DNA of 64,000 bases from NCBI GenBank assembly GCA_016928875.1, contig JAFGJY010000019.1, forward strand, positions 1,996 to 65,995, given 5' to 3'. The position numbers were made by a program, and so were the translations under genes. The DNA is from Candidatus Omnitrophota bacterium. Lineage in GTDB: Bacteria > Omnitrophota > Omnitrophia > JAHJGZ01 > JAFGJY01. This document shows, piece after piece, positions 10,343 to 24,261 of the stretch (its first letter is position 1; every line of letters begins with the position of its first letter). The notes under the pieces were generated by a model. The model worked only from the letters and a program-made list of their open reading frames with translations, was not told where the DNA came from and did not search any database.

Positions 10343-10441
10343 AACTCTATTTGCGAGCTAAAGACACGTTTAATGTTTTCGGATGCAGCTGTTAACTCTT
10401 GCGTTCCGATCGTCTCAACGGTCCGCAGGTCTACGATCAGC
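10343..10441. repeat. about 100-bp remnant copy (~95% identity) of the 3' end of the ABC exporter gene 33025..34791
   Basis: Near-identical to 33022-33130 (aactctatYtgcgagctaaagacacg...ggtctacgatcagca), which encodes the ABC C-terminus ...VETIGAQELTAASENFKRVFSSQIEF; here it lies intergenic between the rSAM gene and precursor P2. Confidence 0.8.
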
Positions 10442-10529
10442 AAAGATGGATTTACAATTTAAAGGATTTGCTTTGCACATCGCGAGATCCGTTGTGAAAT
10501 GTTAATTAGCTTATGAATAATTAAAAAGG

Positions 10530-11432
10530 TCAATACCCGGCAAACAATCCTCGTAGGTTCTCATGCTGGATCATTTTAGCAGGTCCTCTTTGGATACTTT
10601 TTACGAAGCAATTACAATCAAGAACTGAATAAGAATATTTCCTCCTTAATGCCTCTTCCATGATATCGTACACTAATCCATTATCGTACAAGTGCATTTC
10701 GTGGCATTGATAGATCTCAGCATCAGGTAATATTTTTGCGATTTTGCGGCGATTATATTGAGTTACTTCTATTTCACCTATATTTACATGATCTACGCCG
10801 ATATCCTCAATAATGGGCAACATCTCGAAGAGCTTTGTTTTATGCGGAGGCCATGCCGGTGTTTCAACGGTTAGCGCTTTAAAATACTTCCTGGCTAGGG
10901 ATACGTTTTTGTAAACGTCCTTTGAGAAATTTGATGCACCGAGATGAAACCGTATTTCATCAATGCCAAGGTCTCGGAGCTCCTCAAGTATATCTTTGGT
11001 CGCCAAAACTCCGTTTGTGTAAAGGTAAAACCACGGGCTTCCCTTAGTCTCCTTTTTGATATCATTGTACACCTTCATATATTCTCTAATGGTCTTCATG
11101 TACAAAAGTGGCTCACCGCCTCCGCTAAAACTGATCGAAGTTGGGCGATAATGAGGCTCACGCGATTCCCGTATTATTGACGTAATCGTATTGAGCAAGT
11201 CGATCTTTCCAGGTTCTTTCATTTTGTAAAAACAATAACAGCAATTGAGATTACACTTTGCTCCCGTAAGTAGATTGCGATGATATCTATCATAGACGAA
11301 ACAACTGCCGCACCCGGGAGAGATTTTTCCAATATGCACGCAATGTCCACTGGCGTGATATTGAAGCTCTTTGATGGCTTCCTGTCGCTTGAACTTTCTT
11401 GTGTATGCTTCTTGTATAGATAATAGTTTCAT
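10530..11432 (-). CDS. radical SAM protein (no SPASM domain seen)
   Basis: CNLNCCYC (CxxxCxxC) plus SFSGGGEPLL glycine motif; extra N-terminal Cys pair (GCGSCF); start taken at MKLLSIQEAY to avoid overlap with the kinase. Confidence 0.65.
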   Translation of the reverse strand: MKLLSIQEAYTRKFKRQEAIKELQYHASGHCVHIGKISPGCGSCFVYDRYHRNLLTGAKCNLNCCYCFYKMKEPGKIDLLNTITSIIRESREPHYRPTSISFSGGGEPLLYMKTIREYMKVYNDIKKETKGSPWFYLYTNGVLATKDILEELRDLGIDEIRFHLGASNFSKDVYKNVSLARKYFKALTVETPAWPPHKTKLFEMLPIIEDIGVDHVNIGEIEVTQYNRRKIAKILPDAEIYQCHEMHLYDNGLVYDIMEEALRRKYSYSVLDCNCFVKSIQRGPAKMIQHENLRGLFAGY

Positions 11433-11436
11433 CTCT

Positions 11437-12393
11437 TTAAATACGGCTTTCTGAGGATCGTGATAACTTCCTGACAAACGTAATTATGCTCTTGTCATTG
11501 ACAAATCCCAATCGGTAACACGGTACATTTTTTATTACATGCTGACATAATGAGGCAATGCTTTCTAACCCTTCCTTATCCCAGAACGTGGGAAACAATG
11601 CCGGATACAATAATTTAAATGCCTCTGCCCCGGAGACCTTCTCGGCAACATTTTTTGAAGAGTGATGAATGAAAAACAAGACATTAAGTCGGGCAGATTC
11701 TATCTTAGAGTCAAGATAATCGCTAAATTCGCCATGCCACGGAGAACCATAAATAACGAATGTTCCCGCTTCTTTACGCACAATGATCCGATCGTCATTT
11801 AAGACCATGGCTTTCGTGTGCTTATGCCACAGTCTCGCGGTCGTGGTTTTACCATCGCCTGATTTACCAGCGAAAACAAATCCTCTGCCATCAATATCTT
11901 TTACGCCGATAGCATGGGTGAATATACCTTGATTTCTTTGAGCAAGATAATTTATCAAAAGGATCTGCAAAAAGTCGTAAATGATGTCTGATGTTGTCCA
12001 CACATACCCTGCACTCTTTTTAGGCAATAGATATGCGGTTACTTTATCAAAGGTTTTATTCACTACCATAAGCTGCTTTTTATTCGCGAGTGGACAGGTA
12101 AAAATATAGCCCTTTTCGTTCTTAAATAATCTCCAGTTTTCACTGCCGTCCTCAAAATGGTATGTAACAAACAACCGTTTTTTCTTCGTTATTGCAGGCA
12201 GTTTATTAACGATCTTGATCTTAACATTGATGTGTGGTGTCCGGTTCCCCTTGCAAAAGAACTTCTCGTAGCGTTCAAGCCTTTGCTCTTGCTTGACTTG
12301 CTCTGTGAGCGTTTCGAGCGGGAAGCGGCTTGCAAGTCGAATAACCACATCAGAGATCTTTAACGTAATTGTTCCCTTTCCAGAGAGCTTCAT
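11437..12393 (-). CDS. HPr kinase-related P-loop kinase-like protein (paralog 2)
   Basis: FAGKSGDGKTT...VLNDDRIIV block homologous to the other three paralogs. Confidence 0.6.
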   Translation of the reverse strand: MKLSGKGTITLKISDVVIRLASRFPLETLTEQVKQEQRLERYEKFFCKGNRTPHINVKIKIVNKLPAITKKKRLFVTYHFEDGSENWRLFKNEKGYIFTCPLANKKQLMVVNKTFDKVTAYLLPKKSAGYVWTTSDIIYDFLQILLINYLAQRNQGIFTHAIGVKDIDGRGFVFAGKSGDGKTTTARLWHKHTKAMVLNDDRIIVRKEAGTFVIYGSPWHGEFSDYLDSKIESARLNVLFFIHHSSKNVAEKVSGAEAFKLLYPALFPTFWDKEGLESIASLCQHVIKNVPCYRLGFVNDKSIITFVRKLSRSSESRI

Positions 12394-12414
12394 AGTTCAC
12401 CTTTATTTGACCGT

Positions 12415-13284
12415 TTACATTGGAATATGCGGTTGATACACAATTCTATTCACTCCACTGTGCTTATACTCCCGTAGGCGTAATCGCGCGTTTTTATAGA
12501 ACTGTGTGTTGCCTCTAAGATAAATGATCTTAGGCATGGTTCTATGCCTCAGCTTAAATATATACCTCTGACATTCTTTTGCGCATGCCCTGATCCTGAG
12601 CAATGACTTCTCTTTCTCTTCACACCCGGCCGTAAGGCAATAAAAGGTCGTACTAATATAAACATACGGCACGTAAACTGACGCGCCTATTTTGTCTTTT
12701 GGTAATGCTAACGACAGGCCTTGCTCAGTATTATCTAACTCTATTCTGCTTATGCGCTGAGAAATTAAAAAATCGTGAATGATCGGGACGCTTGCCGTAT
12801 TTGAACCTTTGTAATACGGGTCTACTCCCGAAGGAAGCGGTTTTTGAATAAGAATAGTCCGCTTCCCAGGATTTATATAATCTACCATAAGGCGTGGTGT
12901 TACCTCTCTCTTAAGTAACGATATTATACGAGGCCCTCGTTTCTGCTTAGTAAGTAATCTGCCCAATACCGGAATAAGATTGCGATACTTACTGTTAACT
13001 AGACTTAACACTCCCCAATCATTAACTATTACCTCACACGTAATATCTTCTGACTTTAAATATTCAAACAATACCTGCAACTCCTCTAAACCACTATTTG
13101 TCACACACGGGCTCACAAGAGAAAAAGCTAATCTGCTCTGTTTGGTGTAATGTATGACGGTCTGAAGATCCCGTAATGAAGGAATGAGTCGTTCGCAGAA
13201 CTCATTACCATAATACAGTCTGGTATACATGTCATCCGCGTCGGTCAATTGAGCGATATTAGTAATAAAGAGAGCTTTTTCCAA
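12415..13284 (-). CDS. peptidase U32 family protein, short UbiV-like form
   Basis: N-terminal RLYYGNEFCE (compare UbiV VIYLGETVC) and C-terminal Cys cluster YCLTAGC..x12..C..x3..C resembling the U32 Fe-S ligand pattern; paralog of 16303-17205. Confidence 0.5.
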   Translation of the reverse strand: MEKALFITNIAQLTDADDMYTRLYYGNEFCERLIPSLRDLQTVIHYTKQSRLAFSLVSPCVTNSGLEELQVLFEYLKSEDITCEVIVNDWGVLSLVNSKYRNLIPVLGRLLTKQKRGPRIISLLKREVTPRLMVDYINPGKRTILIQKPLPSGVDPYYKGSNTASVPIIHDFLISQRISRIELDNTEQGLSLALPKDKIGASVYVPYVYISTTFYCLTAGCEEKEKSLLRIRACAKECQRYIFKLRHRTMPKIIYLRGNTQFYKNARLRLREYKHSGVNRIVYQPHIPM

Positions 13285-14163
13285 TTAGCTATCCTCTCCT
13301 TTTACGAGAACATTTTTACTCCCAGAGAAGTAGAAGGATATTTTGCCGTGCGTATCTTTCTTCGCGAAGATCAACTTATCGCGTATGTAATGGTCTGCAT
13401 TTACAGGACAAAAACTTTGGCATATTCTGCAGACCGATTTTTGATCGTACACCGCTTCATCCCAAATAGCATCTTGTTTACATGCTCGCCCTATCAGAGT
13501 CAACGTATCATTAACGACACGTTTACAGTGATCTTTGTGTGAAGCGAATAACGAGAAATTGTCGATCTGTTCACTAGGACATGCGTTCACGCAAATAGTG
13601 CAATCTTTACACCCGGGATATTCTTTGGGGTGCATGGGGGTGTTATAGTACATTTTAGTTTCGGAAAATAGCACCTGCAGTTTAATGTCAGAGCCAAATC
13701 GTGGATTGATGATCAACGAATTTTTACCGAATTGCCCCAGGCCCGCATAGTACGCAATGTCTTTCAGTAAAAGTATTTTATTTCTGGTGTCATAGCCGGT
13801 ACGTTTCAAATATGAATATTCATTACCGACAATATTCTGTTTATCCGGTTTGTTATCTCTGTCCAACACATGTGTTTTGATGCGTAATTTCTTCCATAGG
13901 ATAACGGCTACTTCCAATATAATATCTTCTACCGAATAATCCAATGCTATTGGCGTGTAATGTGCCAGAATTATTATGGATTTGACCGTGGGCATCACAT
14001 CGCGGGGCCGGGCACTGTATTTCGGCCCGCCGTATTCGAGAGGAATATGACACAGGTGTGAGTCACATCGTTCTAAATGCTCCGGATCGCAAATCCCAAT
14101 GTGGCATATTTCTCGCAACGCATTCGGCAATAATGCTTCTATATCTTGAGCGTGTATTTTCAT
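13285..14163 (-). CDS. QueG (epoxyqueuosine reductase)-like 4Fe-4S dicluster protein
   Basis: GCKDCTICVNACP and CRICQSFCP ferredoxin motifs in a QueG-like arrangement; paralog of 21073-21798. Confidence 0.55.
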   Translation of the reverse strand: MKIHAQDIEALLPNALREICHIGICDPEHLERCDSHLCHIPLEYGGPKYSARPRDVMPTVKSIIILAHYTPIALDYSVEDIILEVAVILWKKLRIKTHVLDRDNKPDKQNIVGNEYSYLKRTGYDTRNKILLLKDIAYYAGLGQFGKNSLIINPRFGSDIKLQVLFSETKMYYNTPMHPKEYPGCKDCTICVNACPSEQIDNFSLFASHKDHCKRVVNDTLTLIGRACKQDAIWDEAVYDQKSVCRICQSFCPVNADHYIRDKLIFAKKDTHGKISFYFSGSKNVLVKGEDS

Positions 14164-15215
14164 TTACGATACCCCCCCTCGAGTATTACTGAAGGATGGT
14201 AACAATTATTACCTCTACATTGATCCGCATAGTTAAACGTTGTTTGATACAAATGTTGTACTTGATGGATAAATTCTATTTTTGATATACCGTTATTATT
14301 CTCTATAATATCTAAAACCGCTCGGATAAATCGTGTACTTGTAAACCTCTTTTGCGCATCCAGCTGTCGTCCAACGATCTTAAGTAATGAAATCTTAGTC
14401 TTATTGATATCGTATAGCGCGCAGGCCCCACATTGCACGCCGTCAATGAGGTGTTTGTGAAAAGTAGGCCGTATATCAGGCTTTGTGACCTTCTTCCCTT
14501 CGTGATCGAATGTCTCAACAGAATAATCTAACCAGCATGCATCAGATTCTGCTTGCGGGTCGTACGCTGTAGCAACATGTAGCCGCTGCTGAGCGCCCCA
14601 TTCTTCATGTGAAATGTCCTCCGTTGAATCTCTCCCCGCTGTATGCAGGAACGTACAAAAGCCATCAGTGTAAACACAGAGTGTATTTAAGACAAAAACC
14701 TCGAACGCTATATCCGGATTATCATCCGACAACGTTCTCATTGATTCCAGTGTTGTTTGTCGATCCAAGACAATACGTGACGCACCTAACCTTTTATAGA
14801 ATCGTACCGCTTCGGAGTTAAAAACTGTACCACCCGTAGAAATATGGATCTGCCGCGTACATCCCATTTCTCGTAATGTCAACAAGAGACCAATATCAGC
14901 TACGATATAACTATCGATATCGATGCCCTCAAGCTGAGAAATAATTTTGAGCAGCAATGGGTATTGCTCTTTCACGTACAATCCATTCAATGTCAAATGA
15001 ACAGGTGTATTTCGTGAGTGTGCCAACGTAACTGCTTCCGTCAACTCTTTAAGATCCGTAAAATTACTGCCGCCCCCCTTGCGTTCGAACTCAAACGCCG
15101 TGTATTGTCTCGCCCATTCGGGCGACATATATCCACAATATAATTCATCTGCTCCCGCATCGATCAGACGCATTACTTCTTCTTTTTCTTTAAATGGCGC
15201 AATGATCTTTAACAT
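14160..15215 (-). CDS. peptidase U32 family protein, long UbiU/RlhA-like form
   Basis: IDAGADELYCG...FTDLKE..HLTLNG..ADIGLL..GASRIVL TIM-barrel blocks and the U32 signature-like EVFVLNTLCVYTDGFCTF; start chosen at MLKIIAPF by alignment to UbiU. Confidence 0.65.
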   Translation of the reverse strand: MLKIIAPFKEKEEVMRLIDAGADELYCGYMSPEWARQYTAFEFERKGGGSNFTDLKELTEAVTLAHSRNTPVHLTLNGLYVKEQYPLLLKIISQLEGIDIDSYIVADIGLLLTLREMGCTRQIHISTGGTVFNSEAVRFYKRLGASRIVLDRQTTLESMRTLSDDNPDIAFEVFVLNTLCVYTDGFCTFLHTAGRDSTEDISHEEWGAQQRLHVATAYDPQAESDACWLDYSVETFDHEGKKVTKPDIRPTFHKHLIDGVQCGACALYDINKTKISLLKIVGRQLDAQKRFTSTRFIRAVLDIIENNNGISKIEFIHQVQHLYQTTFNYADQCRGNNCYHPSVILEGGYRK

Positions 15216-15261
15216 ACATTTAAAACACCGTATTCGACATGAAATGTAATTACATGATCTG

Positions 15262-16299
15262 TTACACGAGAGTTTGTTTCTTGGCACGCTTCGCCAGTTC
15301 ACAATAATACGTCACGGGATTATCCATAGCACCTGTTTCTACCAGTGCTCTGCCAGGACATGAGAGGCAGTATTCTCTGGCCTCGCAGTCGTAACATTGT
15401 GAGCCTGCAGTAAGTTCCTTGCCATGTACTAATGGCAGTAATCTATTTGAGATACGTTCAATATCATCTTTAAGTACATTATATGATGGTTCCCGTATCA
15501 AAGTGCAAAGAAACATCTTCCCATGTGGATCGATGTATACGCAGTTCCTGCCGGCGATCGCACAGCGAAATAGATCGTTCGTATGCTCACGTGACGAGGT
15601 AGGCCCACAAATACCACCTTCTTCAACTTTATTATGTAGGTGCATAAACTGATCTGGAGATATTCTTAAACTGCACGGTGAAACATCCCCATTTAAACGT
15701 GCGTATAAAATATCATCCGGACGGAATTGTAACCCGAATCCCTCAACAAACTCCTTTATTTGGGGTAGATGAACGAGATTATCAGTCGTTACTTGTGTTT
15801 TGATCTTAAGTGGGATACGTGCACTCAATATCGATCGTACCCCATTCATCACTCTATCAAAAGAGCCTTGCACTTGGGATATTGCCTCGTAAACATCTTT
15901 TGTGACACCATTAAGGGTAACCTCGACCACAAAAGGAGGCCTTTTCTCAAGATACTGTGCGATCTCTTCTGTCAATGAATAGGCACTTGTAAATATGGTA
16001 ATAATGAAGCCTTTGCCCTTGGCATAAGAATAGATCTCCAGAAAATCCTCTCTCATTAACGGGTCTCCCCCCGTAAAACAAAGCCATAGTATACCTTCAT
16101 CAAATATCCTATCCAATATTCGCTTGACCTCATCGGTCTTTAATTCGTCCTTGCGGTACTCTGGCGTATTGTAGCACTCAGTATAACAGTGTTTGCAGTG
16201 CAGTCCACATCCAAAGGTAAGCTCAAACTGACAGACATTGTGCCGTTTGTTTTTCAAGTGAGTATCTAAGCTGAACGTTCTATATTGTATTTCTTTCAT
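15262..16299 (-). CDS. radical SAM/SPASM domain peptide-maturase-like protein
   Basis: CGLHCKHC (CxxxCxxC), FTGGDPLM, C-terminal SPASM Cys array CYDCEAREYCLSCPG; close paralog of 21791-22864 and 24262-25353. Confidence 0.8.
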   Translation of the reverse strand: MKEIQYRTFSLDTHLKNKRHNVCQFELTFGCGLHCKHCYTECYNTPEYRKDELKTDEVKRILDRIFDEGILWLCFTGGDPLMREDFLEIYSYAKGKGFIITIFTSAYSLTEEIAQYLEKRPPFVVEVTLNGVTKDVYEAISQVQGSFDRVMNGVRSILSARIPLKIKTQVTTDNLVHLPQIKEFVEGFGLQFRPDDILYARLNGDVSPCSLRISPDQFMHLHNKVEEGGICGPTSSREHTNDLFRCAIAGRNCVYIDPHGKMFLCTLIREPSYNVLKDDIERISNRLLPLVHGKELTAGSQCYDCEAREYCLSCPGRALVETGAMDNPVTYYCELAKRAKKQTLV

Positions 16300-16302
16300 G
16301 AT

Positions 16303-17205
16303 CTAAAACGGTAATTCGGGTTGATAAACAACTCTATCTACATCATATTGTTGTATAAGAGCAGCGTTTAAAGGATTACGGTAAAAAACGGTATTGCCTC
16401 TTTTGTAGATAACTTTTGGAATTGCGCGATTTCGTAATATGTCGTAATACCGCTGACATTCTTTTTTACACACATTGATACGATATATCTTTTGGAATGT
16501 AGTTTCCATAGGACAAAATCGGGTCGTAGAGATATTTACAAATGGTGTATAAATGGACTTCTTACACGTGATCCCCTTCACATTCAGGCCCTGAATAAGA
16601 TTATTCAATTCTACTCTGTTTATGCCGAACGTGCTTAAAAAAGCTGCGAATGACGGTGAGTTCACATAGGATGCCTTAACACCCTCTTGGTATCGTTTAT
16701 CGGGGACCTTATGGACAAATATCCGTATTTCCCCATCCTTGCCTTTGGCAGCGACGGGTAATTGCTTTCGAATAATGTGCCCCATAGACGGGTCTCTTTG
16801 TTGACGCACCAACAGCCTGCCAAATGCAAGTTCAAAGCGCCCATCACATTCACTCTTTAGATACTGCAACACCCCCCAATCATTTATCACTATTTCACAC
16901 GATATGTTAGCTTCTTTAAACCAGATGAATGTATCGCGTAATCTCTGTAAGCCGTGCTCTGTAACAAAAGGGGTAACATACGTAAATCCGAGCCCTTGTT
17001 TTTCAACTCGTTCAAATACTTTTTGTGTCGCTTCGAGCGGAGGGATCAAATTCTGACAAAACTCGTTCCCCCAATACACTCTATGATATTCATCATCCTT
17101 GAGATATTTCATTCCATTAATACTCACTACATGTACGGCCTTTTCTGTTGACGTAATAGATCCCTTGATCGACCGTTCTGAAGACATTGTAATTGCCATT
17201 GTCAA
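16303..17205 (-). CDS. peptidase U32 family protein, short UbiV-like form (paralog of 12415-13284)
   Basis: RVYWGNEFCQ N-terminal motif; C-terminal FC..x..C..x3..C cluster. Confidence 0.5.
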   Translation of the reverse strand: MTMAITMSSERSIKGSITSTEKAVHVVSINGMKYLKDDEYHRVYWGNEFCQNLIPPLEATQKVFERVEKQGLGFTYVTPFVTEHGLQRLRDTFIWFKEANISCEIVINDWGVLQYLKSECDGRFELAFGRLLVRQQRDPSMGHIIRKQLPVAAKGKDGEIRIFVHKVPDKRYQEGVKASYVNSPSFAAFLSTFGINRVELNNLIQGLNVKGITCKKSIYTPFVNISTTRFCPMETTFQKIYRINVCKKECQRYYDILRNRAIPKVIYKRGNTVFYRNPLNAALIQQYDVDRVVYQPELPF

Positions 17206-18464
17206 AGCACCTCACTTGACAGACGACCACCTACTTCTATCATATATAGTGTTTTGTACGATAATACCGTGAGTACTTCATCAGGGGGATCAAGTTGTTT
17301 ACTGACGTGCAGAAGACCTTGTGCTATCTCATCATATGAACTGCTCTCTGATATTATCTTAGATAATCGTTTTTTTATTAATGTAGCCTTTCCCGATTGC
17401 ATGCGATATTTTTTCGTGATCTTGAGAATGATATCTACAAGCATGCTCCTGATCTTTATGTGTGCTTTATCGAGTTTGTCTTTAAGGTGATAACTTTCAG
17501 CAAAATAAATGTCTTTATATTCATATGTTGTAAACGTTACATGTGCACGAGAATGACGCAGAATAAATTCGAGCATTATCTTGAAATCGTTGAAACTCTC
17601 CCCTGGATAACCAATAATTAGAATAAGCGTGATCTTTGTCGTACTGCAATATCTTTCCATCCACGATAGAAATGACATAAAATCTTGCATCTTGAAATCT
17701 TTACCAACTAACTTTATAAGTCGATCAGTTACCGTAATTAATGATATACGCATTGAATCTATCTTGCCTGATTTCAATATTGGTCTTAACTCATCTGCAT
17801 ATGATAGAAATTCAGGGTTCATACAATCAAGTCCGATCCTGTAGTTGCCAGATATTTTCAATATTCTATTCAATAAGGCAGCTAAGTTCGTACCGATGTC
17901 CCATCCGTATATCGCAGTATTCTGAGCAACGAACGAAAATCTTTCATGCTTATCTTCGAGCCCCCTCTTAAACAATGCAATAATGTCGTCTGGATCAAGG
18001 CTGCGAAGCTGGCCAAAACCGTATTTATCAACGCAAAACGTACAATCTTGATAGCACCCTTTAGCAATATATATTGAGTATAAACCGAATTGATTCACGA
18101 ACGGTTGATTGATCGTGTTAAATGGATGTGTAACACCCAAAATAGAATCTAAGTGATCTAATTCTTCATTTAATAAAAATATGATGCCTTCTCTGTCCTT
18201 GATCAGACCCTTTCTCGACGAGAGCACGCCGGTAACAATAAATAGTGCGTTGCTATTCCTATTATTATTTAAATAATCGATAGTTTTTATGGAATCTTCA
18301 TAATAAAACAAACATGTATCACATATCACGACATCTGCTTTCTTAAGATCGTTCGTAAACAGATACTCATTTATCGTCAGGTAGTTTACGAGCAGGGTTC
18401 TTTCCAAAAAGTGTTCTTGATTACCTTCTGAGACACCTTGGAAATACACGGTTTTTGAACTCAT
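17202..18464 (-). CDS. MiaB/RimO-like methylthiotransferase-family radical SAM protein (divergent N-terminal domain)
   Basis: MTTase-like N-terminal domain (VVICDTC resembles MiaB VLLNTCS) but the first cluster Cys is replaced (FQGVSEGNQ versus TWGCQMN); rSAM motif AKGCYQDCTFCV matches MiaB EGCNKYCTFCV. Confidence 0.6.
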   Translation of the reverse strand: MSSKTVYFQGVSEGNQEHFLERTLLVNYLTINEYLFTNDLKKADVVICDTCLFYYEDSIKTIDYLNNNRNSNALFIVTGVLSSRKGLIKDREGIIFLLNEELDHLDSILGVTHPFNTINQPFVNQFGLYSIYIAKGCYQDCTFCVDKYGFGQLRSLDPDDIIALFKRGLEDKHERFSFVAQNTAIYGWDIGTNLAALLNRILKISGNYRIGLDCMNPEFLSYADELRPILKSGKIDSMRISLITVTDRLIKLVGKDFKMQDFMSFLSWMERYCSTTKITLILIIGYPGESFNDFKIMLEFILRHSRAHVTFTTYEYKDIYFAESYHLKDKLDKAHIKIRSMLVDIILKITKKYRMQSGKATLIKKRLSKIISESSSYDEIAQGLLHVSKQLDPPDEVLTVLSYKTLYMIEVGGRLSSEVL

Positions 18465-18503
18465 AGGGATTTCCTCTTTAATAAAGACAAAAAATACATA
18501 TCA

Positions 18504-20039
18504 TTAAATACTACTACGCCGTGGGAGCATTCCGTTGATTTTGATCAATTTATCGACGTCATCCCTGGATATGGTACCAAGCGAATGTGTAAAGGGATAA
18601 ATAAATCTAAAAGGGAGTTCACCATCATAGGCATAGCGTATCCCATACTGTTCGGGGTCATTAAATACGGCATTATTCGGTGTCAGATAGTAAACGTTAA
18701 TGATAGGTTGTACATTTGGATACTCAACGAGCGAACAAACGGTATCCAGGGCTTCATCAATAGTTTCACTGGGAAGCCCGATCATTACCTGGCAACATAT
18801 TTTTAGCCCCACATCAGAGGCGTCCTTAAGGATACGTTTTGCAACATTTGTTCGTATGCCTTTCTTACAAAAGTTAAGGACTCGCTGGTTCATTGATTCA
18901 AGGCCGCAGACCAATTCGAAGCACCCTGCTTTCTTAATAAGCCTCAATATATCTTTGGTAATAGAATCTTCTAATCTCGAAAAAGACGACCATGCGATCT
19001 TGATATTTTCCCGAATGAGGGCATTACTGAACTCCTCCATTTGGCGTGGAGATAACACCGCATTTGAGATCAGTACGCCGTAACAATTATGCCTTTCCTT
19101 AAGTTCTTTAATGTCCCGTATCACTAATTCTATATTTTTTTCCCGATAGGGCACTTTAGGAAGCGGAAGGTCAACGCAAAATATACATTTATCCCAATAA
19201 CATCCTCTTGATGTTTCATAGGTAAGTGACAATTTGCCCTCTACATTTTTATGGTGCTCTAAGGGGATGCCTTCAAAATCAGGACACGGTAATGCGTCAA
19301 TGTCTTCCTTCGATCGCACGTTAGATGGCACAAAAGTATCGTTACGTTTGAATATCAGGTTCGGAACGTTCGACAGTGGCGTATTTCTCTTAATGGCATT
19401 TATAAGCGAGACCAAAGGGGTTTCACCCTCGGAATAGATCATGTAATCGTAAAACTCGCCGAAGTCACTTCGCTTGATAAGTTCTTCTTTGAATAAGGTT
19501 ATCCATTGGCCTCCCACAACTACTTTGATTTGCGGTATCTCAGATTTTATGACACGGCCGAAGGTGAAGGCGGAAATTACTTGTGAAGGTGCTGTAATGG
19601 ATATACCGACCATATCGTACTTATCATCTTTGATACGTTCGAGGATCTCTCTTTTAAAGAACGCTTTGAATGTATTTTCTTCTTCATCGTCGATATATCG
19701 AAACAAGTTATGTGAAGAAAGCAACTTCTCAGTAAAGTCAAAACGAGCGCCGAGTACCGGATCTACCGGTTCACTGAAACTATTTTGATTTCTATACTGA
19801 ATATCTTTGTAGTAATATACCTTATCCCGTATTTTCTCGTTCCTATACTGCTCTGTTACTATGTGATCGAGTTTATTATTGATAATATAGTTATAATATT
19901 TGTGATCTAAGTCGTCTTGATGCGCATCGATGCCCTGAGCTCTCAAAAATGCAAGAAGCGACGGTGTGCTGAGCGGCGGATGGCCTGTGTTAAATGCCGG
20001 AGGAATTAAGAGTAATATTTTAAATTCAGTGTTTTTCAT
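18504..20039 (-). CDS. B12-binding-domain radical SAM protein (class B-like)
   Basis: N-terminal Rossmann-like B12-binding-type region, then rSAM with the unusual spacing CYWDKCIFC (Cx4Cx2C); 511 aa. Confidence 0.55.
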   Translation of the reverse strand: MKNTEFKILLLIPPAFNTGHPPLSTPSLLAFLRAQGIDAHQDDLDHKYYNYIINNKLDHIVTEQYRNEKIRDKVYYYKDIQYRNQNSFSEPVDPVLGARFDFTEKLLSSHNLFRYIDDEEENTFKAFFKREILERIKDDKYDMVGISITAPSQVISAFTFGRVIKSEIPQIKVVVGGQWITLFKEELIKRSDFGEFYDYMIYSEGETPLVSLINAIKRNTPLSNVPNLIFKRNDTFVPSNVRSKEDIDALPCPDFEGIPLEHHKNVEGKLSLTYETSRGCYWDKCIFCVDLPLPKVPYREKNIELVIRDIKELKERHNCYGVLISNAVLSPRQMEEFSNALIRENIKIAWSSFSRLEDSITKDILRLIKKAGCFELVCGLESMNQRVLNFCKKGIRTNVAKRILKDASDVGLKICCQVMIGLPSETIDEALDTVCSLVEYPNVQPIINVYYLTPNNAVFNDPEQYGIRYAYDGELPFRFIYPFTHSLGTISRDDVDKLIKINGMLPRRSSI

Positions 20040-21076
20040 CGCTTTACAAAGGCCTCGTCTTTAAAAACCGAAGGGTAATAACAGTCATAACGATTGCATG
20101 TAACGTGAAACACCTTTTTAAATAACGTCTTACATTTTTGCACGTATTCTTTTTTTGAAATAGCATCATCGATCAAGAATCCTAATGATTCTTTAATAAA
20201 TAATGTTGCTTTTACTTTCTCTTCCAAGGGTAAATTTCTATCCAGGACTTTTAGGTTACGAGCGCCGATCCTCATTAAGTCATATATAGCACAGGCACCA
20301 CAGCCTTCGATGTCCCGGTCCATCCAATATTTAAACGGTATTGAAGAAGTTTTATTCTTAGTTTTATTTAAGAAGACTCTTTGTCGACGAAATCGGCTCC
20401 GACATCCGCCGGCAAAGCCGCGCTTCGATATACGTGAGGAGCTATAAAAAAAGATGTTTTCCCTTCCAATTCCCTCTTCATTCAATTCACCGGTATCTTC
20501 TTTGCAGTACGTGCAAAGGCCGTCTTCAAAATAACATTGGTCATGGATAATGAATATTTCATATTCCATGTCCGCGTCGTGTATTATCACGTCCCGGATT
20601 TCGCCGATTGTCATTGCTCTAGGTAAAACCACCCTCGTCGCACCCAATGATCTATAAAATTCCACAGCACTGCTATTACAAATGACAGCATCCGTACCGA
20701 TCACGACATCTTTACCACTCAGCACCGCCGGATCCATACGTATAAGCAATGCTGGGTCTGCAAATATTATCCCATCAGCGCCCGCAGACAATACGTCCCG
20801 AATAATACGCTCTGCCATCTCATATTGTTCATCTAAATAATAAAATGCGTTCATAGCAACGTGAACTTTAACACCATGCTTATGAGCTACAGAAATAGCG
20901 TTATCAAGATCAGCCAGTTTCGTAAAATTAGCATGTGACGAACGCTGGTTAATACTAAAGTTTTTATATCTCTTTCGCCAGCTATGCGGTTCTATGCCAC
21001 AGAACAACTCATCAGCCCCCGCCTCACACAACGGTTCCACTTCATAAATATGCGCTAAAGGAGATTTGATTCTCAT
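20036..21076 (-). CDS. peptidase U32 family protein, long UbiU-like form
   Basis: CEAGADELFCG...FTKLAD...HVAMNAF...ADPALL...GATRVVL and a C-terminal Cys cluster DQCYFEDGLCTYC; start set at the internal Met, giving an ATGA overlap. Confidence 0.65.
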   Translation of the reverse strand: MRIKSPLAHIYEVEPLCEAGADELFCGIEPHSWRKRYKNFSINQRSSHANFTKLADLDNAISVAHKHGVKVHVAMNAFYYLDEQYEMAERIIRDVLSAGADGIIFADPALLIRMDPAVLSGKDVVIGTDAVICNSSAVEFYRSLGATRVVLPRAMTIGEIRDVIIHDADMEYEIFIIHDQCYFEDGLCTYCKEDTGELNEEGIGRENIFFYSSSRISKRGFAGGCRSRFRRQRVFLNKTKNKTSSIPFKYWMDRDIEGCGACAIYDLMRIGARNLKVLDRNLPLEEKVKATLFIKESLGFLIDDAISKKEYVQKCKTLFKKVFHVTCNRYDCYYPSVFKDEAFVKR

Positions 21077-21798
21077 TGATTTCCGAAGCTCTTCATGCAT
21101 AATGGATCATTTCTTAACATGGTTACTTGACACTTTGTCTGCTCCTGGCATGCCCGGCAATGATTTAAACCACCGCTTACCCCGCTAAAAACACTGGCCC
21201 TGGCTTCTACTTCATGCCTGACCTCATCATTGTTTATAACTGCCAAGCACTTGGTCATATCGAATCGAAATGTTTCGAGTGTAGTGCCTGAAAAAGCGTG
21301 TCCCGGACATGCGTGATGGCATCGTAAGCAATCAGTATTACATGCGGGAAGGTATTCGGGCAAATTAGGTTTTTGATATCCTTTGATCTCATCGCAAAAG
21401 GCCCATGCAACTATTTTGCAATCAAAACCAAACTTAGGGTTCCAGATCAGATTATTATATCCTCGACAACCAAGACCCGCTTTAACAGCTGCCTCCTTTA
21501 GATCAAGCCTGATCATAAAAATGTTTTTTTTAAAATATGCTGTCAGAATATTTTGTGTTTTCGGCTTGATGTCATAATCATGGGCAACATCGCTATATTT
21601 TACAATGATCAGACTATTTTCTATTTTATTCCAATATTTCTCAGTCCCTTGGTCCAAAGGGATCACCCCTGAAGTAGAATATGCGTCTAGAAGCTTTAAC
21701 TTCATTCTCCCTAATCGCCATGTTTCTTCTTTGTCTAAAACACCGATCTGATATATATCTTCGCGAAAGAGGTTCTTTATTGTTTTGAACTCAATCAT
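21073..21798 (-). CDS. QueG-like 4Fe-4S dicluster protein
   Basis: AGLGCRGYNNLIWNPKFG (QueG-like block), CLRCHHACPG and CRACQEQTKC clusters; start set at MIEFKTIK to remove a 158-nt overlap. Confidence 0.55.
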   Translation of the reverse strand: MIEFKTIKNLFREDIYQIGVLDKEETWRLGRMKLKLLDAYSTSGVIPLDQGTEKYWNKIENSLIIVKYSDVAHDYDIKPKTQNILTAYFKKNIFMIRLDLKEAAVKAGLGCRGYNNLIWNPKFGFDCKIVAWAFCDEIKGYQKPNLPEYLPACNTDCLRCHHACPGHAFSGTTLETFRFDMTKCLAVINNDEVRHEVEARASVFSGVSGGLNHCRACQEQTKCQVTMLRNDPLCMKSFGNQ

Positions 21799-22864
21799 GG
21801 CATACACTACCCTTTGAATAGTCCATTTCTGCAAAGGCACGGCTTTCCGGTTCGCACGAGCTAAAATCATTATTAAAAAGCCACCCTCGTGCCGGGCACC
21901 ATTTACAATATGAAGCAAGTTCACAGGTATCACACTGATAATTATCACCAGGAGTTATACGGGCAACCAACTCTTTAAGCCGTTTCCAGCACCCTTCAAG
22001 CGAGCTGTCTAATATCTTATATTTAGGATGATCTATCATCAGGCACATCTTTAACTCACCCAGTGGCGTGATCGCAGCCTGCGTTCTCCCCACCCCGCAT
22101 TTGAAAAACTCATGCTGAGTGTATTTTTCGTGGATCATTGACCGGTCACAATCAGGATCGTTAGACCGCTTCTTTTGGGACGAAGGATCCGGCGCCTCTA
22201 TGTTATCTGAGGTATACTTCAAAGGTCTTCGATACTTAAATGGCTCGTATGATCCATCGAGGCACGGAGAAAGCAACGCATCTACACGATGCTGTGCTTT
22301 GAGTGAATGCGCAAATTCCTGTATCTGGTCTATCTCGGTTTCATTGCTGTTTAAAACACACGTCTTGAATCCTAAATGCATTCCCTTAGTATGGAGTAAC
22401 TTTATTACATTAAATACCTTGTCTCGTGAGCCTGGTGCTCGACTAACAGACTCAAAGGTCTCACGACGAATGCCTGGTATGGTTATATCTATTAGATTTG
22501 GGCGTAACAGCGCTAATTGCTCCGCGATATGTTCGTCGATCAATGATCCATTAGTATAGAGAATGATCTGAAATCCTAATTCTTTTGCGTACCAAAGGAT
22601 GTCTACTATATCCTCTCTTACGAACGGTTCTCCTCCGGTAAAGCCCAAGTAAAGACAGCCTATGGCTGAAAGTTGATCTAATATATAAAAGACCTCTGTC
22701 GTTGAGAGCTCTTTATACTTTCTGTAACTGTACGGAATATAACAATGACCGCACTCGAAATTGCAGCGATAGGTTAGTTCGAACATTACGCGTAAAGGAA
22801 AGCCTTTATCATGTGCAACATTATGGATACGTTTTCTGAACTCATCATACTGTTGAGATTTCAT
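21791..22864 (-). CDS. radical SAM/SPASM domain peptide-maturase-like protein
   Basis: CNFECGHC, FTGGEPFV, SPASM array CDTCELASYCKWCPARG. Confidence 0.8.
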   Translation of the reverse strand: MKSQQYDEFRKRIHNVAHDKGFPLRVMFELTYRCNFECGHCYIPYSYRKYKELSTTEVFYILDQLSAIGCLYLGFTGGEPFVREDIVDILWYAKELGFQIILYTNGSLIDEHIAEQLALLRPNLIDITIPGIRRETFESVSRAPGSRDKVFNVIKLLHTKGMHLGFKTCVLNSNETEIDQIQEFAHSLKAQHRVDALLSPCLDGSYEPFKYRRPLKYTSDNIEAPDPSSQKKRSNDPDCDRSMIHEKYTQHEFFKCGVGRTQAAITPLGELKMCLMIDHPKYKILDSSLEGCWKRLKELVARITPGDNYQCDTCELASYCKWCPARGWLFNNDFSSCEPESRAFAEMDYSKGSVCHD

Positions 22865-24255
22865 TGTACTACCTCATGAGCTTTTGCCTTACGTATGCAC
22901 TTATCTATTTCTATGCTGCTCAGCTCCGTTCTACCCATATTTCTATAACATCGCGCGAGAGCAAGTGCTACGCAGGCATCATCCGGATTTATCTTTTCTT
23001 CCTTTTTGTATTCTTTTATTGCCCCTGTATATTCTTCCATTTTTTCATAACAAAGCCCTAAGAAGAAATGAGCTCCTTTTGCACCGTTCCTTAATTCCAA
23101 GAAACTCCGCGTATACTTTATCGCATCCATATATTGCCCGACATTAAAACAGGCTCTACTTACCAATTCATAAATATATTCTCTATTGCTGCCTGACGAT
23201 GTTTTTAAGATATTTTCATATACCCGTATGGCGTTTAATTCGTCCTGCTTCCGATCTTGTCCTGAGAAGTCTCGATTAACAACCGTTGCCTTGTGAGCGA
23301 GCATAGTGCAGTATCGACAAGCACTGCAGTTACCATCACAAGCGATCATCGCATTAAAGAAATCGCTGTCACGCAGTGTCTTGTAATCGATGTACTCAAA
23401 ATACACAAGTCCGGGACTATCTAATAGTTCTAAGAGATTACCGTTGAACTCCCGGTTAATATAAGATTCAAGACATAATTGGATCCGGTTCGTGGGAAAT
23501 ACACGCGTTGACAATTTATAATAATCAATAAAGGATTCGTAGTAATTCAGTGCCTCAGGCGGTATAAATGGTACACTAAAAACCTTTTCCTTCTTTCGCT
23601 CATAGATCTCCGTACAGGGATTATCGGCAGCAATACCTTCTGCCACCTTATCAGTGATACTGCTATGGTGCGACAGATTATTATAATGCATAACACGATA
23701 TGGGCAATTACGTAAACATCCTTCATTAAGCATTAAACGTATTTTTAGCGCTGTCCGTTCTTTTATCTGTTTGATCAAGGGTATGTTCCTATTTATATCT
23801 CTGTCAATGGTGAGCACATCAACGCCCAGTTCTTTAAGATATACGGCGTGTTCAACGGTTTTAACGTAGCAATTCACTGACGACTCTATGCGAATATCAC
23901 TGATATGTGTCCGTATCTTTGAAATATACACAGGATTTGTAACCACGACTGAACCAAGGCCCATGTCGCGTAATTCCTTTATATAATCCACTAATCTCTC
24001 AAAATATCTCTTATCGAGACCAACACCTCCCTCGCATGTTGCGTTTAATAAAAGTTGAGAGGTGATATTGAGAGAAGTGCACTTCGCGATGATGTTAGGT
24101 ATCTCTTGGGTATAATTGTGTGCCGGTGAAGTGATTCTTCCTGAACCGATGTATTGGACAGGTGCGGGAAAGTAAAGCGCTTCGATATTCTCTTGATAAG
24201 AACTTAGAAGGTCAAGCAGCTGAGCATCATGGTTATAACCAATTGAGAACTTCAT
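22861..24255 (-). CDS. U32-like TIM-barrel protein with C-terminal TPR repeats
   Basis: N-terminal region resembles the U32 barrel (LKELGVDVLTIDRD...NEGCLRNCPY); the C-terminal ~120 aa are TPR-like (MGRTELSSIEIDKC..); weak call. Confidence 0.35.
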   Translation of the reverse strand: MKFSIGYNHDAQLLDLLSSYQENIEALYFPAPVQYIGSGRITSPAHNYTQEIPNIIAKCTSLNITSQLLLNATCEGGVGLDKRYFERLVDYIKELRDMGLGSVVVTNPVYISKIRTHISDIRIESSVNCYVKTVEHAVYLKELGVDVLTIDRDINRNIPLIKQIKERTALKIRLMLNEGCLRNCPYRVMHYNNLSHHSSITDKVAEGIAADNPCTEIYERKKEKVFSVPFIPPEALNYYESFIDYYKLSTRVFPTNRIQLCLESYINREFNGNLLELLDSPGLVYFEYIDYKTLRDSDFFNAMIACDGNCSACRYCTMLAHKATVVNRDFSGQDRKQDELNAIRVYENILKTSSGSNREYIYELVSRACFNVGQYMDAIKYTRSFLELRNGAKGAHFFLGLCYEKMEEYTGAIKEYKKEEKINPDDACVALALARCYRNMGRTELSSIEIDKCIRKAKAHEVVQ

Positions 24256-24261
24256 TTATAT

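What the first reader, a model, noticed from the sequence alone, without database searches (positions are those of the whole stretch)
17202..18464. MiaB/RimO-like methylthiotransferase with a degenerate N-terminal cluster site
The radical-SAM core (AKGCYQDCTFCV) matches the MTTase EGCxxxCTFC consensus, and the N-terminal domain is MTTase-like. However, the first of the three auxiliary-cluster Cys (TWGCQMN in MiaB) is Ser here (FQGVSEGNQ). RimO already shows that MTTases can act on a protein Asp. This enzyme may methylthiolate a peptide side chain. Alternatively, having lost auxiliary-cluster ligation, it may have been repurposed for other radical chemistry.
Basis: seen in the sequence. Interest (0 to 1): 0.55.

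Follow-up and report, generated by a model that had tools for sequence, protein, structure and literature searches.

The report
Cluster-less MiaB/RimO-like radical SAM enzyme
This gene encodes a radical SAM enzyme built on the methylthiotransferase (MiaB/RimO) scaffold that has lost two of the three cysteines holding the sulfur-donating iron-sulfur cluster and the whole RNA-binding TRAM domain. It sits inside a large peptide natural-product gene cluster of an uncultured Omnitrophota bacterium, so it has most likely been repurposed to modify a peptide by chemistry other than methylthiolation.

Summary
The ORF at 17202..18464 (-), 420 aa, is real, intact and under purifying selection. It is NCBI MBN1492815.1, "radical SAM protein", from a Candidatus Omnitrophica MAG.

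- **Kept:** the CX3CX2C motif (C137/C141/C144) and an MTTase-type N-terminal domain.
- **Cys1 is missing:** the aligned residue is Asn15, not Ser12.
Only Cys51 remains.
- **Start codon:** no alternative start can restore these residues, because an in-frame TGA lies 13 codons upstream.
- **TRAM is absent:** four helices replace it.
- **Other losses:** the QSGS and M-x-R motifs, near-invariant in the 140 nearest relatives, are gone.
- **Scores:** TIGR00089 gives 124.8 bits against a cutoff of 251.

Among 1.84 billion representative proteins there is one orthologue (55% identity) with the same substitutions. It lies in a syntenic cluster of leader peptide, PqqD, SPASM radical SAM enzymes, U32-family proteins and QueG-like proteins.

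Peptide methylthiolation is therefore unlikely. The actual reaction is unknown. I rate it a new variant of a known kind, of moderate interest.

The parts
17202..18464 (-). Target ORF, 420 aa + TGA stop. NCBI MBN1492815.1, 'radical SAM protein' [Candidatus Omnitrophica bacterium].
   Evidence: dN/dS 0.18 against the L001 orthologue
18473..18478 (-). AAGAGG ribosome-binding site 8 nt upstream of the ATG
18501..18503 (-). In-frame TGA upstream of the start codon. It excludes any N-terminal extension that could supply the missing Cys.
18090..18464 (-). N-terminal UPF0004-like flavodoxin-type domain (residues 1-125), 59% identical to the orthologue over residues 1-90
   Evidence: Pfam UPF0004 23 bits, below the gathering score of 27; hhalign; AF2 secondary structure
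18420..18422 (-). Asn15 codon (AAT) at the position of auxiliary-cluster Cys1
   Evidence: Cys in 130 of 142 aligned sequences
18312..18314 (-). Cys51, the only retained auxiliary-cluster ligand (equivalent to RimO Cys46). Cys48 (18321-18323) lies 3 residues upstream in the beta-strand.
18225..18227 (-). Val80 codon (GTG) at the position of auxiliary-cluster Cys3
   Evidence: Cys in 139 of 142 aligned sequences
17475..18089 (-). Radical SAM core (residues 126-330), partial TIM barrel
18033..18056 (-). CX3CX2C motif (C137, C141, C144) for the SAM-binding [4Fe-4S] cluster
17823..17825 (-). Cys214, lineage-specific and conserved in the orthologue. It lies in the loop just after a barrel beta-strand (E209-212), on the active-site side by inference.
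17700..17738 (-). Residues 243-255: 'ITVT...V.K' replaces the family's near-invariant QSGS...M.R
17205..17474 (-). C-terminal region (residues 331-420), four predicted helices in place of the TRAM beta-barrel. It is 34% identical to the orthologue and has no homology to the relatives beyond residue 339.
18504..20039 (-). Upstream neighbour: B12-binding radical SAM protein (RiPP C-methyltransferase-like, below cutoff). It is absent from the orthologous cluster.
20036..21100 (-). Peptidase_U32-family protein (UbiU/TrhP-like, far below the curated cutoffs)
16303..17205 (-). Downstream neighbour (300 aa by the longest ORF; the NCBI start is ATG 17197-17199). It has no Pfam hit. The AF2 model is TIM-barrel-like and its only significant PDB hit is the U32 peptidase Mk0906. 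It is the usual immediate partner of the U32 gene in other clusters.
25494..25745 (-). 83-aa precursor peptide (leader MAKKPKFKPEITRVKLNPEQAVL, followed by a Cys/aromatic-rich core), 80% identical in the orthologous cluster. It is the candidate substrate.
25757..26044 (-). PqqD-family peptide chaperone (RRE)
10036..25353 (-). Rest of the co-directional maturase block: three SPASM-type rSAM genes (24262-25353, 21791-22864, 15262-16299), U32+TPR (22861-24255), two QueG/RDH-like Fe-S proteins (21073-21948, 13285-14163), U32 (14160-15302), a 289-aa paralogue of the partner (12415-13284), an ScmC-like protein (11437-12393), a small rSAM (10530-11477) and a second Cys-rich peptide (10036-10275)

Best explanation
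The gene encodes a tailoring radical SAM enzyme of a RiPP (ribosomal peptide natural product) pathway in an Omnitrophota bacterium. It descends from the MiaB/RimO methylthiotransferase lineage.

**Shown**
- It keeps the SAM-cleaving [4Fe-4S] site and the two-domain scaffold (flavodoxin-like N-domain plus rSAM barrel).
- It has lost two of the three ligands of the sulfur-donating auxiliary cluster, the TRAM domain, and the family's QSGS and M-x-R motifs.
- It has gained a helical C-terminal extension.

**Inferred mechanism**
- It binds one SAM on the remaining cluster and cleaves it reductively to a 5'-deoxyadenosyl radical.
- That radical abstracts a hydrogen atom from a residue of the leader-bound 83-aa precursor, with the leader presented by the stand-alone PqqD chaperone.
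- The outcome is not sulfur insertion. Candidates are epimerisation, dehydrogenation, or cross-link or methyl chemistry.
- The conserved thiols Cys51 and Cys214 may act as H-atom donor or carrier.
- The cluster-less N-domain and the new helical domain would serve as scaffold and peptide- or partner-docking surfaces.

Because the gene is inserted between a U32-family gene and that gene's usual partner, it probably acts in concert with that pair on the same peptide.
For: - **Homology and fold:** TIGR00089 E 3.9e-36; RimO 4jc0 E 8e-18; hhalign probability 100%; AF2 pLDDT 83.7, with MtaB, MiaB and RimO as top Foldseek hits at TM 0.63-0.69.
- **Retained rSAM features:** CX3CX2C, the AQN and GYPGE motifs.
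- **Lost MTTase features:** Cys1 to N15 and Cys3 to V80, against 93-99% Cys in the 140 nearest relatives. QSGS, M253 and R255 are replaced. There is no TRAM: the profile match ends at 368/429 and four helices follow.
- **Functional constraint:** dN/dS 0.18; the N-domain is 59% identical to the orthologue and the core 62%.
- **Context:** the single orthologue lies at the same place in a syntenic cluster whose precursor is 80% identical. The genes are tightly packed and co-directional.
- **Leader family:** it is widespread with PqqD, SPASM rSAM and ScmC-like genes in 40 loci, most of them Omnitrophota MAGs.
- **Precedent:** the fold search also returns AprD4, a class-B-fold rSAM diol dehydratase. 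From my own knowledge, its Rossmann-like domain carries no cobalamin.
Against: - No direct evidence identifies the substrate or the reaction. Peptide targeting rests on guilt by association in only two cluster types.
- Loss of QSGS and M-x-R might also impair SAM binding or catalysis. The roles of these motifs could not be checked because the structure papers are not held.
- Four non-rSAM cysteines (C48, C51, C214, C273) are conserved between the two orthologues. A non-canonical second cluster therefore cannot be excluded without coordinates or spectroscopy.
- The nearest relatives (TRAM-less MTTases with all three Cys) sit in glycan loci, not RiPP loci, so ancestry gives no hint of peptide chemistry.
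Confidence: 0.55

Rival explanations
1. It is still a methylthiotransferase or sulfur-inserting enzyme acting on a peptide side chain (RimO-like). It would use a non-canonical auxiliary cluster (C51 plus C48, C214 or non-Cys ligands such as E17/H18), or sulfur delivered by a substrate Cys or persulfide.
For: - The overall MTTase fold is kept and Cys2 is retained.
- C48, C214 and C273 are conserved in the orthologue.
- The N-domain loop GVSxGNQEH is conserved.
- RimO shows that the family can act on a protein (PMC5352715).
Against: - Two of three ligands that are 93-99% conserved in relatives are replaced by Asn and Val.
- The QSGS and M-x-R motifs are also lost.
- C48 lies inside a beta-strand, 3 residues before C51.
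- C273 aligns to a loop preceding a barrel beta-strand. By inference that is the barrel end far from the active site.
- The score is far below the family cutoffs.
Confidence: 0.12
2. It is a cysteine-dependent methyl-transfer enzyme. With the auxiliary cluster gone, a conserved thiol (C214 or C51) accepts the SAM methyl group, and radical chemistry passes it to the peptide, analogous to RlmN/Cfr. The analogy comes from my own knowledge and was not tested.
For: - Canonical MTTases already use SAM as both a methyl donor and a radical source at one site (PMC10702137).
- Two lineage-conserved thiols lie near the former cluster site and the barrel top.
- The orthologous cluster has no B12-rSAM methylase.
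Against: - There is no sequence similarity to RlmN/Cfr.
- The window cluster carries a dedicated B12-rSAM next door.
Confidence: 0.1
3. It is not catalytic on the peptide. It serves as an Fe-S or structural subunit, or as a maturase, of the flanking U32-family pair. It would supply electrons or modify the U32 proteins or their cofactor.
For: - The gene is inserted exactly between a U32 gene and that gene's normally adjacent partner, in both cluster types.
- Family active-site motifs are lost.
- In L053 an unrelated 518-aa protein occupies the same slot.
Against: - The complete CX3CX2C and the other rSAM motifs are retained under purifying selection.
- In the four other clusters examined the U32/partner pair occurs without it (L015, L051-L053), so it is not required by the pair.
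Confidence: 0.13
4. It is a housekeeping RNA or ribosomal-protein MTTase that lies in the cluster by chance.
For: The best database similarities are to MtaB, RimO and MiaB.
Against: - There is no TRAM and only 1 of 3 auxiliary Cys.
- It scores 92-125 bits against cutoffs of 251-357.
- Only two sequence clusters exist among 1.84 billion representatives, both in the same RiPP-type synteny.
Confidence: 0.02

Closest known systems
RimO (ribosomal protein S12 Asp methylthiotransferase; PDB 4JC0, TIGR01125)
   Same: It is the best sequence match among solved structures (E 8e-18). It shares the N-domain and rSAM-barrel fold (TM about 0.63). Cys51 equals RimO Cys46. RimO acts on a protein rather than RNA.
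   Different: RimO has all three N-terminal Cys, a TRAM domain and the QSGS/M-x-R motifs. The target scores 95 bits against a cutoff of 357 and lacks all of these.
MiaB / MtaB tRNA methylthiotransferases (PDB 7MJZ, 9A6D; TIGR01574, TIGR01579)
   Same: They are the top structural matches (E 1e-16 to 4e-18) and have the same CX3CX2C context (GCxxxCTFC).
   Different: They are RNA enzymes with TRAM and a three-Cys auxiliary cluster. The target lacks both and sits in a peptide-maturation operon.
Uncharacterised TRAM-less MTTase homologues (P0036 group; at least 1720 proteins)
   Same: They are the nearest sequence relatives after the single orthologue (about 30% identity; hhalign E 1.8e-55). They also lack TRAM.
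   Different: They keep all three auxiliary Cys, QSGS and M-x-R. They have an insertion of about 50 residues before the rSAM domain and no C-terminal helical extension. Two of the three loci examined are polysaccharide/glycan loci, and none is a RiPP locus.
AprD4 (class-B-fold radical SAM 1,2-diol dehydratase; PDB 6FD2)
   Same: It is a Rossmann-like N-domain plus rSAM barrel, recovered by the fold search (E 1.9e-11). From my own knowledge it is a precedent for this architecture surviving without the cofactor its N-domain normally carries and performing non-methylating radical chemistry.
   Different: It belongs to a different lineage (B12-binding-like, not UPF0004), acts on an aminoglycoside, and shares only 11-12% identity.
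SynChlorMet-type (Scm) radical SAM/SPASM peptide cassettes
   Same: The surrounding cluster has the same component types: a PqqD-like chaperone, several SPASM rSAM enzymes, an HPr-kinase-like ScmC protein, and a small Cys-containing precursor.
   Different: All Scm models score far below their cutoffs (for example ScmC 17.9 against 125, ScmE/F 60-69 against 400). No Scm description includes an MTTase-like, U32 or QueG-like protein.

Membership tests
MiaB/RimO methylthiotransferase family (TIGR00089; UPF0004 + Radical_SAM + TRAM) | Central radical SAM domain with CX3CX2C | tested here: met
   C137/C141/C144; Pfam Radical_SAM 50.7 bits
MiaB/RimO methylthiotransferase family (TIGR00089; UPF0004 + Radical_SAM + TRAM) | N-terminal UPF0004 (flavodoxin-like) domain | tested here: met
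   Homology and fold are present: hhalign probability 100% from residue 8, AF2/Foldseek. Pfam UPF0004 gives only 23 bits, below the gathering score of 27.
MiaB/RimO methylthiotransferase family (TIGR00089; UPF0004 + Radical_SAM + TRAM) | Three N-terminal cysteines (CX35-36CX32-33C) binding the auxiliary [4Fe-4S] cluster (definition: PMC5352715) | tested here: not met
   Only Cys51 is retained. Cys1 is Asn15 and Cys3 is Val80 in three alignments, and the same holds in the orthologue.
MiaB/RimO methylthiotransferase family (TIGR00089; UPF0004 + Radical_SAM + TRAM) | C-terminal TRAM domain of about 60 residues | tested here: not met
   No PF01938 hit. The TIGR00089 match ends at profile position 368/429. 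Residues 333-408 are predicted as four helices.
MiaB/RimO methylthiotransferase family (TIGR00089; UPF0004 + Radical_SAM + TRAM) | Score at or above the curated family cutoff | tested here: not met
   TIGR00089 124.8 against 251; MtaB 92-102 against 315-357; RimO 95 against 357; MiaB 65 against 355. NCBI names it only 'radical SAM protein'.
MiaB/RimO methylthiotransferase family (TIGR00089; UPF0004 + Radical_SAM + TRAM) | Near-invariant QSGS and M-x-R motifs of the rSAM domain (89-100% in the 140 nearest relatives) | tested here: not met
   ITVT (NAAT in the orthologue), Val253 and Lys255
MiaB/RimO methylthiotransferase family (TIGR00089; UPF0004 + Radical_SAM + TRAM) | Catalyses methylthiolation (SAH + 5'-dA + an SCH3 product) | not testable with these tools
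   Requires biochemistry
Cobalamin-dependent (class B) radical SAM enzymes | B12-binding domain detectable by PF02310 or class-B family models | tested here: not met
   No PF02310 hit for the target. There are only weak hits to B12-rSAM models (14.6-26.6 bits against cutoffs of 251-360). Structural similarity is second-tier.
SPASM/twitch RiPP radical SAM maturases | Cys-rich C-terminal SPASM/twitch auxiliary-cluster domain | tested here: not met
   No Cys after residue 273, no SPASM or Fer4_12 hit, and a helical C-terminus
RiPP tailoring enzyme (membership by context) | Conserved co-location with a precursor peptide, an RRE/PqqD chaperone and other maturases | tested here: met
   Same position in two diverged syntenic clusters whose precursors are 80% identical
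RiPP tailoring enzyme (membership by context) | Demonstrated modification of the precursor | not testable with these tools
   Requires co-expression and mass spectrometry

The most novel reading that the evidence does not exclude
This would be the first methylthiotransferase-derived RiPP maturase. In this reading, loss of the auxiliary cluster is compensated by conserved active-site thiols (Cys51 at the former cluster site and lineage-specific Cys214). That would create a new mechanistic subclass, for example thiol-relayed methyl or H-atom transfer, or sulfur transfer from a substrate cysteine. The enzyme would install an undescribed modification on an aromatic/His/Cys-rich peptide, working with U32-family (anaerobic-hydroxylase-like) proteins.
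Probability: 0.15. Interest if true: 0.75.

Novelty: new variant of a known kind. Interest (0 to 1): 0.48.

Why it matters
Every characterised MTTase (MiaB, MtaB, e-MtaB/CDKAL1, RimO) carries the three-Cys auxiliary cluster and a TRAM domain, and none is known from natural-product biosynthesis.

A conserved, selected family member that has shed both and sits in a peptide-maturation operon is a natural experiment. It shows what the MTTase scaffold can do without its sulfur-donating cluster, and it is a candidate for a new peptide modification.

It also flags a large, undescribed Omnitrophota RiPP family with the leader ...RVKLNPEQAVL. The elaborated clusters of that family combine SPASM rSAM enzymes with U32-family and QueG-like proteins. 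As far as the searched literature shows, that combination has not been linked to RiPPs.

The practical value is modest until the chemistry is determined.

Tried and rejected
- **Alternative start codon to recover Cys1:** rejected. There is an in-frame TGA 13 codons upstream and a good RBS.
- **Sequencing error at the Cys codons:** rejected. Each needs two or more base changes, and the orthologue shows the same residues on 19 contigs.
- **More family members:** the word-indexed search and the exhaustive search of 1.84 billion representatives found only P0001. The window protein itself was missed because its 90% cluster is represented by a 49-aa fragment.
- **Function from the nearest relatives' context:** TRAM-less MTTases with all three Cys lie in glycan or unrelated loci, so this was uninformative.
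- **Target homologues in 40 loci with the same leader family:** none found within ±10 kb.
- **The 289/300-aa neighbours as U32/UbiV homologues:** the profile-profile test was negative (probability 0.4%). Only a modest structural match to U32 Mk0906 supports the idea, so I call them U32-fold-like, not U32 members.
- **The 518-aa protein in the same slot in L053:** not related to the target, and only faintly to the B12-rSAM N-domain.
- **MiaB and RimO structure papers:** not held, so the roles of QSGS and M-x-R could not be verified.
- **Literature searches** for U32+RiPP, UPF0004+peptide, SynChlorMet and the leader sequence: nothing relevant.
- **Distances between C48, C51, C214 and the SAM cluster:** could not be measured because model coordinates are not exposed.
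Full report

The six-frame ORF list gives one intact ORF at exactly 17202..18464 on the minus strand, 420 aa. Its ATG (18462-18464) follows an AAGAGG ribosome-binding site. An in-frame TGA lies at 18501-18503, directly after the TAA of the upstream gene. No N-terminal extension is therefore possible.

The quoted 'AKGCYQDCTFCV' is residues 134-145 and carries C137, C141 and C144. Domain and family scores are:
- Pfam Radical_SAM: 50.7 bits, E 2.9e-13.
- Pfam UPF0004: 23 bits, below its gathering score of 27.
- NCBIfam best model, TIGR00089 (MiaB/RimO family): E 3.9e-36, but 124.8 bits against a cutoff of 251. The match covers profile positions 19-368 of 429, so it stops before the TRAM region.
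- MtaB, RimO and MiaB equivalog models: 65-102 bits against cutoffs of 315-357.

The gene is real and MTTase-related, but it fails every curated family threshold. NCBI itself names it only 'radical SAM protein' (MBN1492815.1, Candidatus Omnitrophica MAG).

**2. The auxiliary-cluster site**

A review defines MTTases as three parts: a UPF0004 domain with CX35-36CX32-33C binding a [4Fe-4S] cluster, an rSAM domain with CX3CX2C, and a TRAM domain (PMC5352715).

Three independent alignments agree on the state of this site: MAFFT with canonical MTTases, MAFFT with the 140 closest representatives, and an hhalign profile comparison (probability 100%, E 1.8e-55, residues 8-339).
- Cys1 aligns with Asn15.
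- Cys2 is retained as Cys51, which equals RimO Cys46.
- Cys3 aligns with Val80 (TGVLSS against TGCLPK).

Across the 142 aligned sequences the three positions are Cys in 130, 140 and 139 (93-99% of the 140 relatives). Only the query and its orthologue carry N and V. The other exceptions are mostly N-terminally gapped at Cys1, and none is a full-length protein lacking both Cys1 and Cys3. The codons AAT and GTG are each two or more changes from a Cys codon.

The same lineage has also replaced other near-invariant family positions:

| Family residue(s) | Conservation in relatives | Query | Orthologue |
|---|---|---|---|
| QSGS | 89-94% | ITVT | NAAT |
| Met | 100% | Val253 | Val |
| Arg | 100% | Lys255 | Lys |
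| Asp182 | 87% | Asn | Asn |

The protein has seven cysteines in all. The four outside the rSAM motif (C48, C51, C214, C273) are conserved in the orthologue.

**3. Fold**

An AlphaFold2 model (pLDDT 83.7, pTM 0.79) shows three parts:
- a flavodoxin-like N-domain (strands 5-10, 45-50, 74-79 with intervening helices);
- the partial TIM barrel of the rSAM core;
- four helices at residues 333-408, instead of a TRAM beta-barrel.

Foldseek against the PDB ranks MtaB (9a6d), MiaB (7mjz and related entries) and RimO (4jc0) first, with E 1e-15 to 4e-18 and TM 0.63-0.69. Class-B-fold rSAM enzymes follow, including MgmA, AprD4, TsrM, CysS, TokK and OxsB.

In the model, C48 lies within strand 45-50, three residues before C51. 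C214 lies in the loop just after strand 209-212. By inference that is the active-site end of the barrel. Model coordinates are not exposed, so no distances could be measured.

**4. How rare is it, and is it functional?**

The exhaustive search of 1.84 billion representatives found one protein in the same family: P0001, 55% identity, 515 bits. The next best hit scores 142 bits.

Against P0001 the NG86 dN/dS is 0.18, though dS is saturated. This is similar to the neighbouring maturase genes. Identity by region is 59% for the N-domain (residues 1-90), 62% for the rSAM core and 34% for the C-terminal helices. The cluster-less N-domain is thus still under constraint.

The next tier of relatives is a large group (at least 1720 proteins) of uncharacterised TRAM-less MTTase homologues. 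They keep all three Cys and score at about the TIGR00089 cutoff. Of the three examples examined, two lie in polysaccharide/glycan loci and one in an unrelated context. Ancestry therefore gives no hint of peptide chemistry.

**5. Context**

The target lies in a co-directional, tightly packed block (roughly 10036-34791, minus strand), which encodes:
- two ABC transporters and an S24/S26-type peptidase;
- a GDSL/TPR protein and a GT4 glycosyltransferase;
- a peptide-arginase-like UPF0489/TPR protein (NF052474, 56.9 bits against a cutoff of 350);
- a PqqD chaperone and an 83-aa peptide;
- three SPASM-type rSAM enzymes;
- three Peptidase_U32 proteins (best NCBIfam hits UbiU and TrhP, far below cutoff);
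- two QueG/reductive-dehalogenase-like Fe-S proteins;
- two paralogous 289/300-aa proteins;
- a B12-binding rSAM protein, an ScmC-like protein, a small rSAM enzyme and a second Cys-rich 79-aa peptide.

P0001 sits at the same position in a syntenic cluster (L001-L007). Every neighbour there is 55-71% identical and the 83-aa peptide is 80% identical. The one difference is that this cluster lacks the B12-rSAM gene.

The leader sequence MAKKPKFKPEITRVKLNPEQAVL defines a precursor family found in 40 genome loci, most of them Candidatus Omnitrophota MAGs. These precursors have hypervariable Cys-containing cores ending in SS, AS or TS. They come with a core cassette of PqqD, three SPASM rSAM genes and an ScmC-like gene. 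None of those 40 loci encodes a homologue of the target within ±10 kb.

In the four other clusters examined that carry the pair (L015, L051-L053), the U32 gene and the gene for the ~285-aa protein lie next to each other, directly abutting or overlapping in L052 and L053. In the window and in L001 the MTTase-like gene is inserted between them; in the window the B12-rSAM gene is inserted there as well. In L053 an unrelated 518-aa protein occupies the same slot.

The target's TGA (17202-17204) lies 2 nt from the NCBI start of the downstream gene, ATG 17197-17199. The target is therefore a rare accessory gene of an elaborated branch of this RiPP family, physically nested within a U32/partner gene pair.

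**6. Most likely mechanism**

Shown:
- MTTase ancestry and fold.
- An intact SAM-cluster motif and purifying selection.
- Loss of two of three auxiliary-cluster ligands, of TRAM, and of QSGS and M-x-R.
- Conserved placement in a RiPP-type operon.

Inferred:
- With one thiolate left at the former cluster site, the enzyme can hardly assemble the cluster on which MTTases build the methylthio group (PMC5352715; PMC10702137). Methylthiolation is therefore unlikely.
- It most probably uses a single SAM to make a 5'-deoxyadenosyl radical that abstracts hydrogen from the leader-bound precursor. The outcome would be something other than sulfur insertion.
- The helical C-terminus would replace TRAM as a docking surface for the peptide or a partner.
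- Which reaction occurs cannot be decided from sequence. Candidates are epimerisation, dehydrogenation or cross-linking, and methyl relay through Cys51 or Cys214.
- AprD4, recovered in the fold search, is a precedent from my own knowledge for this two-domain architecture working without the cofactor its N-domain usually carries.

**7. Rivals**

| Rival | Confidence |
|---|---|
| Non-canonical second cluster or substrate-derived sulfur, still a methylthiotransferase | 0.12 |
| Thiol-relayed methyl transfer | 0.10 |
| Accessory Fe-S subunit or maturase of the U32 pair | 0.13 |
| Housekeeping MTTase located here by chance | 0.02 |

Evidence and refutation tests for each are given in the structured fields.

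**8. Comparison with known families and novelty**

By fold and descent the protein resembles RimO, MiaB and MtaB. It fails four tested defining features of that family: the three-Cys site, TRAM, the curated score and the QSGS/M-x-R motifs. I do not file it as a methylthiotransferase.

It is also not a class-B (no B12-binding domain hit) or SPASM/twitch enzyme. The full-text searches found no report of a cluster-less MTTase homologue, of an MTTase-family RiPP maturase, of U32 proteins in RiPP clusters, or of this leader sequence.

I rate it a new variant of a known kind. For the gene itself the interest is moderate, because divergent rSAM enzymes with lost accessory sites are not rare. The interest is raised somewhat by the unusual cluster in which it sits.

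**9. Limits**

- Only two sequences define the lineage.
- No coordinates, spectroscopy or product data are available.
- The roles of the lost motifs could not be checked in the primary structure papers, which are not held.
- Two fold libraries were unavailable.

Noticed in passing
window 25494-25745 (-); loci L008-L047: The 83-aa peptide's leader (..KFKPxITRVKLNPEQAVL[S/T/A]C) defines a large precursor family. More than 60 precursor ORFs occur in 40 loci, most from Candidatus Omnitrophota MAGs. Cores are hypervariable, contain Cys and end in SS, AS or TS. No Pfam or NCBIfam model hits the peptide, and the searched literature does not contain the sequence.
   Followed up: partly
window 20036-21100, 14160-15302, 22861-24255 (-): Three Peptidase_U32-family proteins sit inside a RiPP-type cluster. 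One is fused to TPR repeats. The best NCBIfam hits are UbiU and TrhP, the anaerobic/prephenate-dependent hydroxylases, at scores far below cutoff. This suggests O2-independent peptide hydroxylation. No paper linking U32 to RiPPs was found.
   Followed up: partly
window 16303-17205 and 12415-13284 (-); L015, L051-L053: Two paralogous 289/300-aa proteins (37% identical) have conserved Cys (C50, C231, C246, C250) and no Pfam hit. There are 207 homologues; those that carry a source name are from Omnitrophota MAGs. In the other clusters examined they lie next to a U32 gene, directly abutting or overlapping it in L052 and L053. The AF2 model is TIM-barrel-like and its only significant PDB hit is the U32 peptidase Mk0906 (E 5e-5), while hhalign against the U32 genes is negative. 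They may be a UbiV-like partner subunit.
   Followed up: partly
window 21073-21948 and 13285-14163 (-): Two diverged paralogues (29% identical) resemble epoxyqueuosine reductase QueG and reductive dehalogenases (4Fe-4S ferredoxin motifs; scores far below cutoff). They lie within the peptide-maturation block, which is an unusual component for a RiPP cluster.
   Followed up: no
window 26058-27545 (-): A UPF0489/TPR protein is related to the FlmR/OhkR peptide arginases (NF052474, 56.9 bits against a cutoff of 350). Those enzymes convert Arg to ornithine in RiPPs (PMC12703449). The 83-aa precursor has conserved Arg residues (R48, R55).
   Followed up: no
window 18504-20039 (-): A B12-binding rSAM protein (RiPP C-methyltransferase-like, TIGR03975, 135 bits against a cutoff of 282) lies directly upstream of the target. 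It is absent from the otherwise syntenic L001 cluster, so it is a recent insertion or loss in the same slot.
   Followed up: partly
window 10036-10275 and 10530-11477 (-); L001 17195-18380: A second, Cys-rich small peptide lies next to a small rSAM enzyme (N-terminal similarity to PapB/ranthipeptide-type maturases) at the distal end of the cluster. The peptide core is not conserved between the two clusters (79 aa against 67 aa).
   Followed up: no
L048 6001-7206, L049 6001-7215 (relatives P0187, P0216): A large uncharacterised group of TRAM-less MTTase homologues (at least 1720 proteins) keeps all three auxiliary Cys. Two of the three examples examined sit in polysaccharide/glycan biosynthesis loci (Wzz, Wzy, glycosyltransferases), which hints at a non-RNA, non-protein substrate for bona fide MTTase chemistry.
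   Followed up: partly
L053 622-2178: A 518-aa protein with no Pfam hit lies between a U32 gene and its partner. It has a Rossmann-like N-terminus faintly similar to a B12-binding domain and only a C-x-x-C remnant ('GCSFCTYF') where an rSAM motif would be. It may be a pseudo-rSAM in the same slot as the target.
   Followed up: partly
window 2-1858 (+): A chorismate-binding enzyme is fused to a class IV aminotransferase (PabB-PabC-like), about 8 kb from the cluster end. It is noted only because U32 hydroxylases use a chorismate-derived oxygen donor. No link was tested.
   Followed up: no
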